29,089 bases of DNA from a virus (Duplodnaviria; Heunggongvirae; Uroviricota; Caudoviricetes), in IMG/VR virus record IMGVR_UViG_2529292726_000018, positions 1 through 29,089 of that record; one strand, written 5' to 3'. This document shows, piece after piece, positions 185 to 10,261 of this stretch (within the stretch, counting starts at the first letter, position 1; every line of letters begins with the position of its first letter). The position numbers and the translations under genes were made by a program. The notes under the pieces were generated by a model, which was not told where the DNA came from, did no database searches, and was given only the letters and a program-made list of their open reading frames with translations.

Positions 185-847
185 TCATATGCCGACGTTA
201 TTGCGAAACTTACAGCCGCTCAGGCATTTGCTGCATTTATCCTTCGTGATATCGGATGTAGGCTGGTCATATTCATCCGCGACTGCCGGACCGTGATAAC
301 CGCACTCATCGCCGCGATAGGTCCAGGTGCAGGTGTTGGCCAGCATGATACGTCCCGGAAAAACAGCGCCGTCCGTTTCCGTCGGCGTGGACAGTACAAA
401 GGAGGCACTGACCGCGCTCAGTTCGCTGCACTGCTCGATGCGCCAGCGGCTGATCACCTCCTGCTCCGGATCGGCGTCACTGTTTCCGTTGACGAAGTTC
501 ACCGCATCCAGAAAACGGGCGTAAACCTTACGCCGGACCACCGTTCCGCCGACCAGACTCTGCAGATCTTCCGCCATCCCGGTGACCATACCGTACAGGT
601 TAGAAACCGTAAGTGTGGGACGTGCGCTGCTGCCCTTACCGTTCATCTCAAAGCCGCTTCCCTGAATGGGGTACGCCTGATACTTTCGCCCCTGCCAGGT
701 AACCGGTTCACCTTTTTCATTCTGCTCATTGCAGAAAAAGTAACGCTCCCCACCGACCTCTGTCAGATCAATTTCCCAGAGCACCACGCTGGCCGTCTGC
801 TCCACACGGATGCATTCATTCAGTGTTTCCTGTCGTATGTCCTGCAT
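185..847 (-). CDS. Minor tail protein L (lambda gpL family)
   Basis: 220 aa; N-terminus [12 protein letters not shown]...VVLWEIDLTEVGGERYFFCNEQNEKGEPVTWQGR and the cysteine-rich C-terminal part closely match lambda gpL as recalled. ATG at 847; follows M. Confidence 0.9.
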   Translation of the reverse strand: MQDIRQETLNECIRVEQTASVVLWEIDLTEVGGERYFFCNEQNEKGEPVTWQGRKYQAYPIQGSGFEMNGKGSSARPTLTVSNLYGMVTGMAEDLQSLVGGTVVRRKVYARFLDAVNFVNGNSDADPEQEVISRWRIEQCSELSAVSASFVLSTPTETDGAVFPGRIMLANTCTWTYRGDECGYHGPAVADEYDQPTSDITKDKCSKCLSGCKFRNNVGI

Positions 848-1185
848 CAGATCACCACTTCGTCAAACTGACACGAAAAATCGGTATAGGTGATATGTTC
901 TGTCGCTGACCACGTTCGACACACCACTCTGATTTTTCTGTTAATACCCGGCGGGCGCCAAAAAAAAGATTTATAGCCTTCATGCCGGGCTAAAAATTTT
1001 TCAAATGAATCACGTTCATTCGCCTCAACTTTGAAATCACAGGTGAAAACGCGCAGAGAATGATTAAGTCCATTTGGACTTCGTTGCTCATAACCATCAC
1101 CAAATCTTACAGTTTTTATCGATGGTTTATTTTCTGTTTTCATTCCATCCTCTGGTAACCAGTGAAATTCTTCCGTATTAGCCAC
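847..1185 (-). CDS. Minor tail protein M (lambda gpM family)
   Basis: 112 aa; [16 protein letters not shown]...KSFFWRPPG matches the lambda gpM core. GTG start overlaps the tape-measure stop by 8 nt. Confidence 0.85.
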
Positions 1186-4100
1186 TTAACATTCCCCCAT
1201 CACGTCGCATATTTAACAGATTGCCCTGCACCCGCTGATCAACCATCCCCATAAGTGCTTTTATTGCCTGAGGGCCAATCTCTCCATTCTGGCCGTCATT
1301 TTGAATAGTGATTTGGTATACAGGGGCATAGGTAATATCTCCGCCTCCATTACCACTTTTACTATTAATAGCTCTGACACCAAGAGAACCATCGGAAGTT
1401 CGTGTTAATGGCATAATAGCTTCCGGTCCAGCCTCACCAAAAACACCAGCCCCTTTTGCAAAAGCAAAAAATTGCGGGGAATCATAAATACCGTTCGAAT
1501 ACGTGCTCAATGACGGAGACTCATAAACACCGCCCTTTGCATTCGGAATAAATTTACTAATAGCACTCCCGATAGTTCCTAAAATCCCCCCAGAAGAACT
1601 GTTACTAATGCTGTCGAAAATCCCAGTAATTGAAGCCTTTAATGCTATTCGACTAAGATCCGAAATCACGGAAGTAGCGAAAGAACGAAAATTTGCCTTG
1701 CCTGTCGTGACAAAATCACCCAGCGCATCGGTCATCCCATCAAACATCTGAGTCGTGGTTGATTTTATCTGCTCACTGATATCCTTAGTGTCATCCAGCC
1801 AGTTATTGAATCCCTGGGAGGCACCACTAACCCAGTCTCCTGCCTGAATATCGAGCTGCTCGTTTTTCTGTCTGACAATTTCTTTTTCCCGTTCCAGAGC
1901 ATCATTCAGAGCCTGCATTTTCTCTTGAAAAACATGATCTGACATTCCACGGGATTTATCTGCATAGTCACGTTCAAGTTGCAGACGCTGATTGTTATAT
2001 CCATGTTCAATCCGCAGTAATTCCTGCTGGCGTTGCTGATTTTTATCGCCAACCCCATAACCAGCAATCTGAATATCATACCCCTGCTGACGATTATCAA
2101 TCGAAGCCTGCAATGAATCACGCCATGCTGTTATTTCGGCGGATTCCTTGATTAGCCTGTTATTTTTTTCAATCGCAACATTTTTCTCCATCAACGCGGT
2201 TATTTCTTCCCGGTGTAAGAGAAGCGATTTCTGATCCTGGGTTAATTTCGTTGATGGTCGTGACTCTAGGTCGGCAATCCGCTGACGCCACTTAACCAGT
2301 TCCTGTTCAGAGGAACTTAATTTAACGGTCAACTCAGCTTGTGAACTTAGTAACGCATTCTGTTGATTCAGATGATCAATCATTCGTTGGGCTGCATCAT
2401 CAGAATAACCTTTCGCCTTTGGTTGCTTTGGATCTTTATAACGCTCATTTATTTGAGCGATAAGATTATTATATTCTTCCTTTGAATACTGATTCTTTAG
2501 CTTTTCCAGTTTTGCAAGTTCACTAGCTCTCTGCTGCTCCCGGGTCTGATATTGTTTTGAAAAGGCATCTGCTCTCTGTCTGAGTTCAATTCCTTCCTGT
2601 TGTCGCTTGTTGTAATCGTTTATTGATGAATTTAGTACGTCCTGAGCAATTTTTTCTGCTTGAAGTACGCCCAATTGCTGCTTTAATCGTGCCAGCCTTT
2701 TATTTTGAGCTCCGCCATCTCCAATGCCACCTAACCCGAAAACTCCGGGTCGGGGATTTTTTTCTATTTCATCAATTTGACGGAGAACATCTGAGATTTT
2801 TTGATCAAGGGAGGTCTCACGGCCAATATCCAGCATGGAATCCCATGCCCATTTTGCGGAGTCTGCGACAGCTTTCCATGCAGTCTCAAGATAACCAAGA
2901 TTTTCTTTAATCTGGTTGGTGCGCTGGATCATTGAGGATGAGTATTCTTCTGTCGCAATGCGGGCGGCCTCCTGCTGGTTCCCTTCATCCTGTAGCGCCT
3001 TAATCTGGTTATAAGTCGCAAGTGTCAGAAAATGGTACTGATCATTAAGTTTTGATATGGCACTGACAGGATCCTTTGCAATTTCATTGAAGTCATTAAC
3101 CAGTTGTTCGGTTGATATTCCTGTTACTTCGCTCGTTTTTACTATCGCTGTCGTCACTTGCTCCAGCGAACTGCTCGCTACCTTTCCCGAACGCACAAGC
3201 TGATTTAATACTGCCGCCGCAGCACCAGTTGTCGAATCAGCCGCATTCCCGGCACGTTGAGCTATATCGCCCAATTGCCCGCTGGTTGTCCCCAACTGAT
3301 TTCCGGTAAGAATAAGAGATTTATTAAATTCGTCCTGCTCCTGAGAGCCTTTATAGTAAGCCAGTCCTAAGACCCCAACGGCTGCTGCGGCTAGGGGAAA
3401 AGGATTAACTAATCCCAGCACATAAGAACCTACACCTTTGATCGCCGGGCCAATCCCACCGAACATATCTTTTAGCTGGCCGCCCTGCTGCATTAACACC
3501 ATAAATGGCGACTGACCAGTGGACAACCCAACAACAATATCCGTCATTTGTGCAGGCAACATGCGCATAGCAAAAGCCGTTTGTTTTGCCGACATTCCGG
3601 TTTTGCTTAATTGTGATTGAGTAACCTCAAGCTCACTCCGCATAGCACGAAGTTTTCCAGAAAGCTCCTCATACATTTCAGGAGAAAGCATCCCCTTAGC
3701 TTTTGCTTCATTGAGCTGTTTCTGTTGTTCTACCAGACGATTAAAAGCAGTTCCGACAGGATCAAGTTGAGCAATCAGACGTTGCAAAGCAACAACCTGT
3801 TCATCATGCGCTTTTGCTGCTTCTCGCTCTGCCTGAGCCTCTCCGGTAAGCTCTCGCCGTGTTTCCTGTATTTTTCGGCTATAATTCTCAAACTGAGAAC
3901 CATTTATTTTCCCGGATGCAAACGCAGCATTAAGTTCATCATGCTGTTGTTCAAGATTTCTTAGCGCCGCAGCCAGAGGGTCGATCTTGTCCAGCATTCT
4001 TTGAAAGGCCTGAGCCTGCGCTTCCTGCTGGGCGGCAGCAAGTTTTCCGGCCTTCTCGGCTTCTCTCTGCGCTTGCGCAACCCCGCTCAATTCCTCTGTG

Positions 4101-4411
4101 GTTTCATTAAGTTTACGGACAAGAAATTCATATTCTTCTTTATCAATAAGCCCTTTATCGAAAAATTTCTTTAATTCAGAATAGCGTCGACCGACAGTAT
4201 CAATTGCGGCACCAACTGGATCAATAGCTACTTTTAATTTTGCGAGCGCGTTCTTCTCATCTTCTGTTGCCTTAGTCACTTTCCCTGCGCTATTTGCAGC
4301 AGTTTCCCCAGCCTGCGTCATTTTGACTAATGAGGAGGTCAGATTGTCAGCATTATTTTTCGCTCCAGTGCTATCAATAATTATTGCGAGACGCGAGGTT
4401 TGCTCTGCCAT
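1178..4411 (-). CDS. Tail tape measure protein
   Basis: 1077 aa, Ala/Gln/Glu-rich coiled-coil-like N-terminal two thirds with a Gly-rich hydrophobic segment. Strong SD (AGGAG) before the ATG at 4411. Lies between the chaperone genes and M. Confidence 0.9.
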
Positions 4412-4430
4412 TTATTAAAACTCCTGACAA

Positions 4431-4456
4431 CAAAAAACCCACCGCGAAGTGGGTTT
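4431..4456 (-). terminator. Intrinsic terminator-like hairpin upstream of the tape measure gene
   Basis: Minus-strand RNA forms AACCCAC-(6 nt loop)-GUGGGUU followed by UUUUUUG. Sits in the 165 bp gap between the T-frame stop (4577) and the tape-measure start. Confidence 0.5.
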
Positions 4457-4576
4457 CAGGCGACATAATAGTAGATATAGCGATTACGAGGCCACGCAAT
4501 GCTTTTCTCCAGGAGCATCATCGATTTAATTAAAGACACCATCACATCTCTGTAACAGAGTGTACGTAATTAACAA

Positions 4577-5346
4577 CTACACACACTGCTCCTGAAAATA
4601 CTGGTCATCCAGTGCAAAGATCACTGCTTCAAATTCATCGCGCTCAATCAATACCGGATGAGTGGCTAAATATTCATTTATCTCTGTCAGAGATAAAGGC
4701 AAAGGCACCCCAGCCATTCCAGCATAACGTCGGGCACGGGATATTACCGAATAGGCGTACAACAACTCCTTAAGCACCGGGTCTATTTCTGGTTCCGGTA
4801 TCGGTGGCAACCTGAGTTTTTCTCGCTTCCATCTTGCCTTTCCCCCCCTTTCTCCCCCGAACTCCGATAACCACCGCTGGGCAGCTATGGCTTTTTTATC
4901 GTATCCTGCTTCTGCTGCTCTTTACCCTGGGCGATGCTGGCTGCTTCTGCAAGGATCTGCCAGTACAACTCTGGATTCTGCTTAAGCAGCGCGATCCCTC
5001 GTTCTGCCGTATATTCCAGTGCAACCTCAACACCATTAACCAGTTCACCAACCCCTTTCCAGTCTTTCAGCAGATAACGAGCGGCATTATCAATGAGTAA
5101 ATCATCAACAGAATCCACCTCGGAAACCTTTGAAATATCAAACTCCTTCGTTCCGACGTGCAAACTGGCATCCATTTTCTCAATGTGGCGACGGATTAAT
5201 GCATTACGGGAGCGATACTGATCGTTATCGCTGCTTGCCACCAACAGTTTTAACCCGTCTACAGGTTTTAAGTCCTTCATTGGCGTAAACCAGCGTTCTC
5301 CACCAATGATAATTTTCTGATTAAGAATAAACATCCATAACCTCAT
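4577..5346 (-). CDS. Tail assembly chaperone G-T fusion made by a programmed -1 frameshift
   Basis: The -1 frame is open with no stop from the slippery site through to the stop at 4577 (DKKAIAAQRWLSEFGGERGGKARWKREKLR then LPPIPEPEIDPVLKELL...). Predicted product is about 254 aa. Confidence 0.7.
4885..5346 (-). CDS. Tail assembly chaperone (lambda G-like)
   Basis: 153 aa ORF directly downstream of the major tail protein gene, ending ...DTIKKP. Carries the slippery heptamer three codons before its stop. Confidence 0.75.
   Translation of the reverse strand: MRLWMFILNQKIIIGGERWFTPMKDLKPVDGLKLLVASSDNDQYRSRNALIRRHIEKMDASLHVGTKEFDISKVSEVDSVDDLLIDNAARYLLKDWKGVGELVNGVEVALEYTAERGIALLKQNPELYWQILAEAASIAQGKEQQKQDTIKKP
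4891..4897 (-). other. -1 ribosomal slippery heptamer A_AAA_AAG
   Basis: Plus 4891-4897 is ctttttt, so the minus strand reads A AAA AAG in the G frame (codons ata-aaa-aag, then cca-tag). This is the same heptamer as E. coli dnaX and is placed exactly as in lambda G/GT. Confidence 0.75.
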
Positions 5347-5394
5347 TCAATGCGTCCCCCTGTAGGGCAGTACCACAGGAGGAATAACGGAAAA

Positions 5395-6357
5395 TCAACT
5401 AATCGCCTCAGCACTGGCTTTTGCGATCACGGCAGCCGGGGAATTTTTTTTTCTGGTTATCGTAGGTGCTTCATCTGCTGCGGTAATGCTCAATTGAACC
5501 TGGATAATGTCGCTATTACCCCCATCAGGCCATTCACCTGACACCTGAACCTTCGGGAAACTGAAAGTGTATGCCCCCTCTCCATTCGAAAGCGTGAAGC
5601 TGAACGGAACTGTTTCTCCAGTCAGTGTTTTACTCCAGATTTCCCACGCGGCTTTAGACCATGAAAGCGTCACCGTACCGGACGGTGTAAAAGTAGTCGG
5701 AATATTTGCTCCTGCATAAGGCGAGCCAGTCCCGATACAACGCTGTGTCTGGAGTTTGTTATCGAACTGAATATCAAAACTGTCGATACAAAAACCGTTA
5801 CCTCCGGCAACACCATTCAGGCTTACTGCTGAAACCTCCTTAAACGAATAACGTAGCTTTCCTGCACTATCCACAGGTTCGCCTTTGATAAAATTCGTAT
5901 CATCGGCCTTTGATTCCCAGTCCAGTCCGGCAAAGGTTACGGTCGCTGTAATATCGCCGTCGTTAGGGATCTGCATTTTCCATGAGCCAACCTGCGCTCC
6001 TCTGACGACAGAGGCAATTCCGACATCGGACGCATAGGTCGCCAGAGAAAATGTTATTCGCTCATTCCCCATTGTCAGAGAATCGCCTGACCATTCCGCG
6101 CCGAAACAGGATGCAAGAAAATCATCATGTTGACCCCAGCGAAATTTGGTACCAACATCACCGCCGACATCCACAGTGCCAGGCGTCGCCCCCTGAGCCA
6201 TCCGGGAGCCACCAATCTCATTATTTTCGCCTTTATTCTGGGTGGGTTTTACTCCCCAGCTTGTGCGTTTTAATAAACTCCAGTCACCACTTGCTGGCGT
6301 AGTGCCTGCAACCGTCTCCCGGATAAATGCCGAGATAACCTTTGCACCTGAACTCAC
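5395..6357 (-). CDS. Major tail (tube) protein, probably with a C-terminal Ig-like domain
   Basis: 320 aa. GTG start five nt after a strong SD (AGGAGG). Position upstream of the G/T chaperones; Thr/Ser/Gly-rich beta-type composition. Confidence 0.8.
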   Translation of the reverse strand: MSSGAKVISAFIRETVAGTTPASGDWSLLKRTSWGVKPTQNKGENNEIGGSRMAQGATPGTVDVGGDVGTKFRWGQHDDFLASCFGAEWSGDSLTMGNERITFSLATYASDVGIASVVRGAQVGSWKMQIPNDGDITATVTFAGLDWESKADDTNFIKGEPVDSAGKLRYSFKEVSAVSLNGVAGGNGFCIDSFDIQFDNKLQTQRCIGTGSPYAGANIPTTFTPSGTVTLSWSKAAWEIWSKTLTGETVPFSFTLSNGEGAYTFSFPKVQVSGEWPDGGNSDIIQVQLSITAADEAPTITRKKNSPAAVIAKASAEAIS

Positions 6358-8120: not shown

Positions 8121-8144
8121 CATTAAAAATGGGGCCGAAGCCCC
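8121..8144 (-). terminator. Intrinsic terminator after the major capsid gene
   Basis: Minus-strand RNA forms GGGGC-UUCG-GCCCC followed by AUUUUUAAUG, about 10 nt after the capsid stop codon. Confidence 0.55.
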
Positions 8145-10214: not shown

Positions 10215-10241
10215 AATAAAAAAGGCCACCCGAAGGTAGCC
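10215..10241 (-). terminator. Intrinsic terminator-like hairpin between head morphogenesis and scaffold genes
   Basis: Minus-strand RNA forms GGCUACC-UUCG-GGUGGCC (one G-U pair) followed by UUUUUUAUUG. Confidence 0.45.
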
Positions 10242-10261
10242 TGTTGTAATAAATGATTTAT

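What the first reader, a model, noticed from the sequence alone, without database searches (positions are those of the whole stretch)
4412..4576. 165 bp gap with an intrinsic terminator between the chaperone genes and the tape measure gene
Lambda-like tail operons usually run T straight into H. Here a hairpin with a U-run (4431-4456), a 6-1-6 palindrome CTCTGT-a-ACAGAG (4548-4560) and a possible 33-codon ORF intervene. A partial terminator could set stoichiometry by reducing transcription of tape measure and tip genes relative to tube and chaperone genes.
Basis: seen in the sequence. Interest (0 to 1): 0.35.

Follow-up and report, generated by a model that had tools for sequence, protein, structure and literature searches.

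The report
Conserved terminator before tape-measure gene
The 165-base gap is real and holds a textbook transcription terminator that nearly all relatives of this phage tail module keep just upstream of the tape-measure gene, at the downstream edge of a slot where related phages carry extra "moron" genes; here the slot is almost empty, so this is an ordinary, already-described kind of feature.

Summary
All genes here are on the minus strand. The G/GT chaperone gene ends at 4577 and the tape-measure (TMP) gene starts at 4411. A canonical intrinsic terminator lies at 4457-4434, with its U-run at 4437-4427, 10 nt before the TMP ribosome-binding site.

The window is an intact Rac-like lambdoid prophage. 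The gap is 100% identical to the ydaY-ynaA intergenic region of E. coli K-12.

Across 181 related loci there are 74 distinct upstream sequences, from Enterobacterales and one Pseudomonas phage. 73 of the 74 have a hairpin plus U-run at this position, with differing, partly compensating stems.

The distance from the chaperone stop to the TMP start ranges from 39 nt to over 3 kb. The space holds Ail/Lom, lipoprotein, zinc-ribbon membrane, KilA-N, antirepressor and antitoxin genes. This is a moron slot like that of HK97 gene 15. The extra ~120 nt here match nothing, show no promoter, and the 29-codon ORF is not conserved as coding.

The phage encodes a Q antiterminator, and five other coding-strand terminators precede this one. 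Lytic transcription therefore probably reads through it. I favour an insulator for non-antiterminated transcription.

The parts
4412..4576 (-). 165-nt intergenic gap between the GT chaperone stop and the TMP start. It is a nearly empty accessory-gene (moron) slot.
   Evidence: It is 100% identical to the E. coli K-12 Rac ydaY-ynaA intergenic region. The equivalent distance in relatives is 39 nt to more than 3 kb.
4434..4457 (-). Terminator hairpin GAAACCCAC-UUCGCG-GUGGGUUUU. The core stem is CCCAC/GUGGG, extended by A-U pairs.
   Evidence: -13.3 kcal/mol, z = -2.79. Present at the same position in 73 of 74 distinct relatives. 91% of cells are paired and 3 of 8 pairs show compensatory changes.
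4427..4437 (-). U-rich tract UUUUUUGUUGU immediately 3' of the stem.
   Evidence: Relatives have at least 5 U in the 8 nt that begin at the U-run.
4409..4425 (-). TMP ribosome-binding site AGGAG (4425-4421), a 9-nt spacer and the ATG (4411-4409).
   Evidence: The RBS region (GCCCGGAGA in most relatives) is conserved next to the terminator.
4458..4576 (-). About 120 nt of extra sequence found only in the Rac-like group. Its origin is unknown. No sigma-70-like promoter was called on the coding strand.
   Evidence: No blastn or tblastx match to the cargo of 113 relatives. Only Rac-like records were hit in the phage collection. Promoter scan. GC is 0.40 against 0.45-0.47 in the flanking genes.
4456..4545 (-). 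29-codon ORF (GTG ATG GTG start; its TGA stop abuts the hairpin). Probably not a gene.
   Evidence: All five distinct substitutions among Rac-like variants are non-synonymous or nonsense: ATG to ATA or ATT, W to L, W to stop, P to L. No Pfam match.
4548..4560 (.). 6-1-6 palindrome CTCTGT-a-ACAGAG, at chance level.
4559..4587 (-). Imperfect 13-bp hairpin spanning the GT stop codon. Not significant.
   Evidence: the region has z = -1.65.
4577..5346 (-). Tail assembly chaperone G (4885-5346) and its -1 frameshift product GT. The slippery A AAA AAG is at 4897-4891 and the T frame runs to 4577.
1178..4411 (-). Tape-measure protein gene, 1077 aa.
20025..20687 (-). Q-like late antiterminator gene at the head of the same transcription direction.
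   Evidence: PF06530 and DUF1133, phrog_753 at E = 1.8e-79.
19922..19941 (-). tR'-like terminator about 85 nt downstream of the Q stop. It is the first of six coding-strand terminators between Q and TMP.
8131..8144 (-). Terminator hairpin directly after the major head protein gene. This is a parallel case inside the late operon.
10223..10242 (-). Terminator hairpin between the head-morphogenesis and scaffold genes.

Best explanation
The gap is the accessory-gene (moron) slot of a widespread siphovirus tail module, here almost empty. Its downstream edge is a genuine intrinsic (Rho-independent) terminator, fixed about 20 nt upstream of the tape-measure start codon.

Shown:
- The hairpin plus U-run is on the coding strand.
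- It is retained at the same position in 73 of 74 distinct relatives, with varied and partly compensating stems.
- The interval between the chaperone stop and the terminator is hypervariable and carries typical moron cargo.
- This phage has a Q antiterminator, and several other terminators lie along the late transcript path.

Inferred:
- During lytic growth, Q-modified RNA polymerase reads through this terminator as it must read through the five before it.
- The terminator therefore acts mainly on polymerases that are not antiterminated. These would come from promoters of slot cargo, or from read-through or spurious transcription in the prophage. In K-12 Rac that would be transcription coming from trkG-ynaK-ydaY.
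- This keeps the tape-measure and distal tail genes silent in the lysogen.
- The extra ~120 nt here are most simply a non-coding remnant of past cargo turnover.
For: Anatomy.

Conservation and covariation. In the structure-fitted alignment 91.4% of cells are paired, against at most 68% when the partner is slid. There are 16 cells with double changes, and 0 of 500 shuffles reach the observed covariation score.

Slot variability and cargo: (Ail_Lom, Zn_ribbon, KilA-N, SocA_Panacea, P22_AR_N, lipoproteins).

Precedent: the HK97 gene 15 moron lies between the chaperone and TMP genes and is followed by an annotated terminator 12 nt before H. Review PMC3594210 says morons carry their own promoter and terminator so that they can be expressed from repressed prophages.

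Q system and terminators. Antitermination complexes bypass multiple terminators regardless of their sequence (abstract of PMC10325885).
Against: The window's slot has no detectable promoter or gene, so in this phage there is little obvious transcription to insulate against.

The terminator is also kept in two relatives with empty slots (39 and 45 nt). One is Gungnir39, which has no annotated lysogeny or Q genes. In HK022 the empty junction has no terminator. Together these suggest the element belongs to the tail module rather than to cargo, and that it may act during lytic growth.

No transcript 3'-end data for this site were found.
Confidence: 0.5

Rival explanations
1. The element is a built-in partial terminator (attenuator) that lowers transcription of the tape-measure and tip genes relative to the tube and chaperone genes during lytic growth. 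This would resemble the leaky terminator after the T7 major capsid gene.
For: The hairpin and U-run are conserved whatever the cargo, including in empty slots and in Gungnir39, which has no annotated lysogeny or Q functions. Analogous terminators follow the major head gene in the window and in Gungnir39. The U-run itself is conserved, not only the stem.
Against: This phage has a Q antiterminator, a tR'-like terminator, and four more terminators upstream that late transcription must already pass. Q-type complexes generally ignore ordinary terminators. In cargo-laden relatives the cargo sits upstream of the terminator, so any stoichiometric step would also include the cargo.
Confidence: 0.22
2. 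The element acts mainly as an RNA 3'-end stabiliser. After read-through and endonucleolytic cleavage, the hairpin would protect the upstream tube and chaperone mRNA from 3' exonucleases. That would give differential mRNA half-lives rather than differential transcription.
For: The stable hairpin sits at a boundary after abundantly needed genes, and similar hairpins follow the head gene. This model is compatible with Q read-through.
Against: Stabilisation does not need a U-run, yet at least 5 U are kept in 73 of 74 relatives. There is no direct evidence.
Confidence: 0.1
3. The gap is a tiny live moron or small-RNA gene: a promoter within 4458-4576, then a 28-29-aa peptide or an RNA of about 90 nt, ending at the terminator.
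For: An ORF of 29 codons ends exactly at the hairpin. The layout parallels HK97 gene 15. The 165 nt are nearly invariant in about 1,050 E. coli genomes.
Against: No sigma-70-like promoter was called on the coding strand in the gap. All substitutions seen in the ORF are non-synonymous or nonsense, including loss of the ATG. There is no Rfam family beyond a sub-threshold match to a terminator and no Pfam hit. Nothing is annotated at this site in K-12, and no 3' end is listed there in the Term-seq tables that could be read.
Confidence: 0.08
4. The element is a neutral leftover: a terminator that once belonged to cargo now deleted, with no present function in this phage.
For: The slot here lacks a gene and a promoter. 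Two Rac-like variants carry a weakened stem, GUGGU.
Against: The element persists across genera, with compensating stem changes and a conserved U-run, including in empty slots.
Confidence: 0.1

Closest known systems
HK97 gene 15 moron, between the tail assembly chaperone genes 13/14 and tape-measure gene 16
   Same: It occupies the same junction in a lambdoid tail operon. A GC-rich hairpin (CCCGCU-AUCA-AGCGGG) with a U8 run lies 12 nt before the TMP start, and extra DNA is present relative to a sister phage.
   Different: HK97 carries a real 62-aa gene, a superinfection exclusion protein, described as having its own promoter. The window has no conserved ORF and no detectable promoter. In the HK97/HK022 pair the empty site lacks the terminator, whereas in this family the two empty sites keep it. 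The tail modules are not close in sequence: the HK97 GT search returned none of these phages.
Lambda-type Q-antiterminated late operon with internal terminators
   Same: A Q homologue is followed about 85 nt after its stop by a terminator. A long unidirectional late operon then contains further intrinsic terminators that must be read through.
   Different: The PR' promoter and the Q-binding site were not identified here, and read-through at this particular terminator has not been measured.
Leaky intrinsic terminators or hairpins after abundant structural genes. The T7 terminator after capsid gene 10 is cited from my own knowledge. The HK97 putative terminators flanking the major tail gene come from the record.
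   Same: A hairpin plus U-run is placed after genes needed in high copy number (tube and chaperones here; the major head gene at 8131-8144).
   Different: T7 uses its own polymerase and has no processive antitermination. In this phage a Q system should blunt any such effect.
E. coli K-12 cryptic prophage Rac, ydaY-ynaA (tmpR) intergenic region
   Same: The sequence is identical over window 4380-4620. ydaY ends where G ends, and ynaA starts at the TMP ATG.
   Different: K-12 Rac is a deleted remnant, whereas the window is an intact relative with complete head, tail, lysis and Q genes. Nothing is annotated in the K-12 gap.

Membership tests
Intrinsic (Rho-independent) terminator | GC-rich stem-loop on the transcribed strand | tested here: met
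   The stem has 9-10 pairs with a 5-bp G/C-rich core (4 G-C pairs), -13.3 kcal/mol, z = -2.79. It is on the minus strand, the same strand as all flanking genes.
Intrinsic (Rho-independent) terminator | U-rich tract immediately 3' of the stem | tested here: met
   UUUUUUGUUGU at 4437-4427. At least 5 U in 8 nt in 73 of 74 distinct relatives.
Intrinsic (Rho-independent) terminator | Transcript 3' ends or termination activity at the site | not testable with these tools
   The K-12 Term-seq and SMRT-Cappable-seq supplements that could be read list nothing at 14264xx (+). Other data sets are not held. Absence from these tables is uninformative for a poorly transcribed cryptic prophage.
Moron (Juhala/Hendrix sense) | Extra DNA between two genes that are adjacent in related phages | tested here: met
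   165 nt here against 39 nt (L098) and 45 nt (L007). Most relatives have 500-3091 nt.
Moron (Juhala/Hendrix sense) | Own terminator | tested here: met
   However, the terminator is also present where no cargo exists, so it may belong to the module rather than to a moron.
Moron (Juhala/Hendrix sense) | Own promoter | tested here: not met
   No sigma-70-like site on the coding strand within 4412-4576 in the consensus scan. By eye there are only weak candidates. The scan covers sigma-70 consensus promoters only.
Moron (Juhala/Hendrix sense) | Encodes a gene product | tested here: not met
   The only coding-strand ORF has 29 codons. All 5 distinct substitutions in it are non-synonymous or nonsense. 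No Pfam or Rfam family matched.
Q-antiterminated lambdoid late operon | Q-family antiterminator gene upstream of the lysis and structural genes on the same strand | tested here: met
   20025-20687(-): PF06530 at 26.7 bits (cut-off 26), DUF1133 at 2.3e-107, phrog_753 at 1.8e-79.
Q-antiterminated lambdoid late operon | Terminator shortly downstream of Q that blocks late genes without Q | tested here: met
   AACCCGC-CAUUGA-GCGGGUU plus a U-run at 19941-19922, about 85 nt after the Q stop, z = -3.65.
Q-antiterminated lambdoid late operon | Demonstrated Q-dependent read-through | not testable with these tools
   This needs expression experiments.
Leader-peptide transcription attenuator | Conserved leader ORF and an alternative antiterminator structure | tested here: not met
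   The ORF is not conserved as coding. The MFE and centroid folds of the 191-nt region keep the terminator hairpin and show no competing helix.

The most novel reading that the evidence does not exclude
The terminator may be an integral, ancestral control element of this tail module rather than a moron accessory. It would be a fixed terminator-RBS unit in front of the tape-measure gene with two effects. First, it would attenuate or gate tape-measure transcription. In empty-slot relatives the GT stop codon lies 0-4 nt from the stem, so a ribosome finishing the frameshifted GT product could occlude the hairpin and couple tape-measure read-through to GT synthesis. Second, because it insulates anything placed upstream of it, it would turn the chaperone/tape-measure junction into a dedicated docking bay for accessory genes. 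That would explain why this junction is hypervariable in almost every relative.
Probability: 0.15. Interest if true: 0.55.

Novelty: new member of a known kind. Interest (0 to 1): 0.3.

Why it matters
On its own the element is ordinary: a terminator at a junction already known from HK97 as a moron site.

The comparative result is modestly useful. In this widespread Enterobacterales tail module the chaperone/tape-measure junction is a near-universal cargo bay with a constant terminator-RBS boundary. That boundary gives a simple landmark for finding prophage accessory genes such as outer-membrane proteins, exclusion-type membrane proteins and antitoxins. It also explains an unannotated terminator in the E. 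coli K-12 Rac remnant between ydaY and ynaA.

If the terminator proved to act during lytic growth despite Q, it would be an example of transcript-level stoichiometry control inside an antiterminated operon.

Tried and rejected
- Rfam scan of 4000-5400 at E <= 10. The only hit in the gap was a sub-threshold match to the terminator end of sroH (14.7 bits against 80 needed), so no known RNA family is present.
- Homology of the extra ~120 nt. There was no blastn or tblastx match to the upstream regions of 113 non-Rac relatives. Only Rac-like records were hit in the phage collection, and E. coli genomes carry a median of one copy (highest two).
- Small ORF as a gene. Rejected on its substitution pattern and the lack of any family match.
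- Palindrome 4548-4560 as an operator. It is unique in the window and at chance level.
- Hairpin over the GT stop (4559-4587). Not significant.
- Leader-peptide attenuation. No alternative structure was found.
- Experimental support from K-12 data. Supplements of PMC7815308, PMC12207403 and PMC6131387 list nothing at the site. PMC9023263, PMC11092163, PMC6061677 and PMC4161252 have no held supplements. PMC4288677 is not held. PMC6401483 was a wrong identifier recalled from memory.
- A literature search for ydaY or ynaA gave nothing relevant.

Full report
**1. What is there**

All genes around the finding are on the minus strand.
- The tape-measure protein (TMP) gene is 1178..4411(-), 1077 aa.
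- The tail assembly chaperone G gene is 4885..5346(-).
- Near the end of G there is a canonical -1 slippery heptamer A AAA AAG (4897-4891) in the correct phase. The -1 frame stays open to TAG at 4579-4577, giving a 256-aa GT product.

Read in the direction of transcription, the interval ends as follows:
- a hairpin GAAACCCAC-UUCGCG-GUGGGUUUU at 4457-4434;
- a U-rich tract UUUUUUGUUGU at 4437-4427;
- the Shine-Dalgarno sequence AGGAG at 4425-4421;
- a 9-nt spacer and the TMP ATG at 4411-4409.

The hairpin folds at -13.3 kcal/mol, with z = -2.79 against shuffles. On the opposite strand the same stem is followed by UUUCAGGCG, which is a poor tail, so the element is essentially unidirectional.

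**2. Minor items in the finding**

- The 6-1-6 palindrome is at 4548-4560 as stated. It occurs once in the window, is matched in frequency by 16 of 100 shuffles when two mismatches are allowed, and is broken in two Rac-like variants.
- I could not reproduce a 33-codon ORF. The only coding-strand ORF in the gap is 29 codons (4545..4456, starting GTG ATG GTG), and its TGA stop abuts the hairpin.
- Among 14 distinct Rac-like variants of the gap, plus those seen, every distinct substitution inside this ORF is non-synonymous or nonsense: ATG to ATA, ATG to ATT, W to L, W to stop, and P to L. I do not regard it as a gene. It has no Pfam match.
- An imperfect 13-bp hairpin spans the GT stop (4559-4587) but is not significant.
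- Rfam finds nothing in the gap apart from a sub-threshold match to the terminator end of sroH.
- No sigma-70-like promoter is called on the coding strand in the gap.

**3. Where the sequence comes from**

The region is 98-99.7% identical to Salmonella phage SPF_0923 and a set of vB_EcoS E. coli phages. Window 4380-4620 is 100% identical to E. coli K-12 MG1655. There it is the unannotated interval between ydaY, a remnant of G, and ynaA/tmpR, a truncated TMP gene, in the cryptic prophage Rac. 1,048 of 5,426 complete E. coli genomes carry it; all but one of the best matches are at least 95% identical. The window is thus an intact Rac-like lambdoid prophage.

**4. Comparative evidence**

I found relatives in three ways:
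- a tblastn search of phage records with the GT protein;
- a scan of one genome per species with the TMP N-terminus;
- two scans of IMG/VR with the TMP N-terminus.

This gave 181 loci including the window, with 74 distinct sequences over -60..+3 of the TMP start. The loci come from Escherichia, Shigella, Citrobacter, Raoultella, Klebsiella, Serratia, Pectobacterium, Pantoea, Mixta, Siccibacter, Entomohabitans, Providencia and Erwinia, plus a Pseudomonas phage.

- In 73 of the 74, a hairpin with at least 3 G-C pairs, followed by at least 5 U in 8 nt, ends 16-27 nt before the TMP start. Only L026 lacks it, and it shares just 48 residues of the TMP.
- The stems differ between lineages: CCCAC/GUGGG, CCUCGC/GCGGGG, CCCGC/GCGGG, GCCGC/GCGGC, GCCCCG/CGGGGC, GGCCCCGCUU/AAGCGGGGCU, GCCCGG/CCGGGU and CCCAG/CUGGG.
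- On a plain MAFFT alignment of 25 representatives, 88.9% of cells pair, against at most 69% when the 3' partner is slid.
- On a covariance-model alignment of 28 sequences, 91.4% of cells pair, 3 of 8 pairs show changes on both sides (16 cells), and no shuffle in 500 reaches the covariation score. The caveat is that the structure was derived from these same sequences and the second alignment is fitted to it. The per-sequence scans do not depend on any alignment.

The terminator is therefore a positionally conserved, selected element.

**5. The gap is a cargo slot**

The distance from the chaperone stop to the TMP start varies widely:

| Locus or group | Distance (nt) |
|---|---|
| L098 | 39 |
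| L007 (Erwinia phage Gungnir39) | 45 |
| Rac-like group | 163-165 |
| Nearly all others | 500-3091 |
| Some loci | more than 3000 |

- The inserted DNA always lies between the chaperone stop and the terminator.
- It encodes Ail/Lom outer-membrane proteins, lipoproteins, zinc-ribbon membrane proteins, KilA-N and P22-antirepressor-type proteins, and a SocA/Panacea antitoxin.
- This matches the situation for which the word 'moron' was coined. [quoted passage not shown]
- In the HK97 record the moron is followed by an annotated terminator (CCCGCU-AUCA-AGCGGG-U8) 12 nt before the TMP start. In HK022 the chaperone and TMP genes are 19 nt apart with no hairpin.
- The window's slot is nearly empty. 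Beyond the ~45 nt of terminator and RBS, it holds ~120 nt (4458-4576) that match no cargo in any relative at the DNA or translated level and have lower GC (0.40 against 0.45-0.47).
- The Rac-like T domain also ends earlier than in relatives (…ALDDQYFQEQCV*). This places a mosaic joint at the 3' end of T.

**6. How it most likely works**

The window encodes a Q-family antiterminator at 20025-20687(-), supported by PF06530, DUF1133 and phrog_753 at 1.8e-79. It lies upstream of an AraC-family gene, the holins and all structural genes, which share one orientation.

About 85 nt after the Q stop there is a terminator at 19941-19922, laid out like lambda tR'. Under strict criteria, six coding-strand terminators lie between Q and TMP:
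- 19941-19922;
- 19027-19008;
- 18917-18902;
- 10242-10223;
- 8144-8131, directly after the major head gene;
- 4457-4434.

Late transcription must pass the first five to express head and tail genes at all. That is the signature of processive antitermination. [quoted passage not shown]

I therefore infer that the terminator at 4434-4457 is largely read through in lytic growth and is effective mainly against polymerases that are not Q-modified. These include polymerases starting at cargo promoters in relatives, and read-through or spurious transcription in the prophage. The effect would be to keep TMP and the distal tail genes silent in the lysogen. This inference is not shown by any experiment.

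**7.

- The two relatives with empty slots keep the terminator, unlike HK022.
- The Gungnir39 record annotates no integrase, repressor or Q. It gave no tblastn hit to the window's Q, and it has similar hairpins after its capsid and tube genes. This rests on the depositors' annotation, and I did not test the phage's lifestyle.
- The U-run, which termination needs but RNA stabilisation does not, is conserved everywhere.

These points suggest the element belongs to the tail module itself and may have a role in lytic expression, either attenuation or 3'-end stabilisation. My estimates are:

| Explanation | Estimate |
|---|---|
| Insulator or boundary terminator | about 0.5 |
| Lytic attenuator | about 0.22 |
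| RNA stabiliser | about 0.1 |
| Live mini-moron or small RNA | about 0.08 |
| Functionless leftover | about 0.1 |

That the element is a true intrinsic terminator I put at about 0.85.

**8. Experimental data**

I looked for K-12 3'-end or transcript-boundary calls at the equivalent coordinates. The gap is NC_000913.3 1426289-1426453 (+), and the predicted 3' end is at about 1426432-1426438. The tables that could be read list nothing there. Other data sets were not held, and one look-up used a wrong identifier. For a poorly expressed cryptic prophage this absence is not informative.

**9. Verdict**

The feature is a new member of a known kind: a terminator bounding a moron slot at the chaperone/tape-measure junction.

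The useful additions are:
- this boundary is almost universally conserved in a widespread tail module;
- the slot is a hypervariable accessory-gene bay;
- the same unannotated terminator sits in E. coli K-12 Rac.

Interest is low to moderate.

Noticed in passing
window 19900-20060 (-): Directly after the Q-like gene there is a short region that ends in a strong terminator (AACCCGC-CAUUGA-GCGGGUU plus a U-run, 19941-19922). The layout is like lambda PR'-tR', and a short constitutive RNA of about 60-70 nt may be made there. By eye, a weak promoter candidate TTGATT-17-TTCAAT overlaps the Q stop.
   Followed up: partly
window 19052-19948 (-): An AraC-family regulator gene (HTH_18/HTH_AraC) sits between Q/tR' and the holin genes and is followed by two terminators (19027-19008, 18917-18902). 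This looks like a second moron inside the late operon.
   Followed up: no
window 22598-23371 (+): A KilA-N protein matches the PHROG family annotated as 'BstA abortive infection system, replication inhibitor' (phrog_6287, E = 2.7e-89). It lies on the opposite strand between the early and late regions and is followed by a terminator at 23377-23401. It is a likely prophage defence gene.
   Followed up: no
window 8131-8144 (-) and 10223-10242 (-): Canonical terminators lie directly after the major head protein gene and between the head-morphogenesis and scaffold genes. An unlisted ORF of about 58 codons follows the first one (roughly 8112-7933).
   Followed up: partly
window 4443-4448: The window and K-12 carry a 6-nt loop UUCGCG, whereas most Rac-like variants have the classic C(UUCG)G tetraloop. 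This is a 2-nt CG indel. Other variants change the U-run length (CU5, U7, U8) or weaken the stem (GUGGU).
   Followed up: yes
E. coli K-12 NC_000913.3 1425621-1426454 (L005): ydaY ends exactly where G ends in the intact phage, so it is the remnant of the tail assembly chaperone gene. The frameshifted T extension (about 1425980-1426288) and the terminator are unannotated in K-12.
   Followed up: partly
L004 (E. coli KMi012), 3289-4016: An IS1A insertion replaces everything upstream of about 30 nt before the TMP start in one Rac-like prophage. The chaperone genes and the terminator are removed.
   Followed up: no
L021 gap 908-1890; L024; L009: Some slot cargoes are multi-gene and include a SocA/Panacea antitoxin-like gene with a partner ORF, a P22-type antirepressor, and opposite-strand Arc-like or other ORFs. 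The slot therefore also holds candidate toxin-antitoxin or defence modules.
   Followed up: partly
L006 3280-3300: In the Klebsiella phage slot the first cargo gene, a lipoprotein, has its own terminator (AAAGCCACC-AUCG-GGUGGCUUU plus a U-run) ahead of a second cargo gene. The cargo has accumulated in a stacked, moron-by-moron fashion.
   Followed up: no
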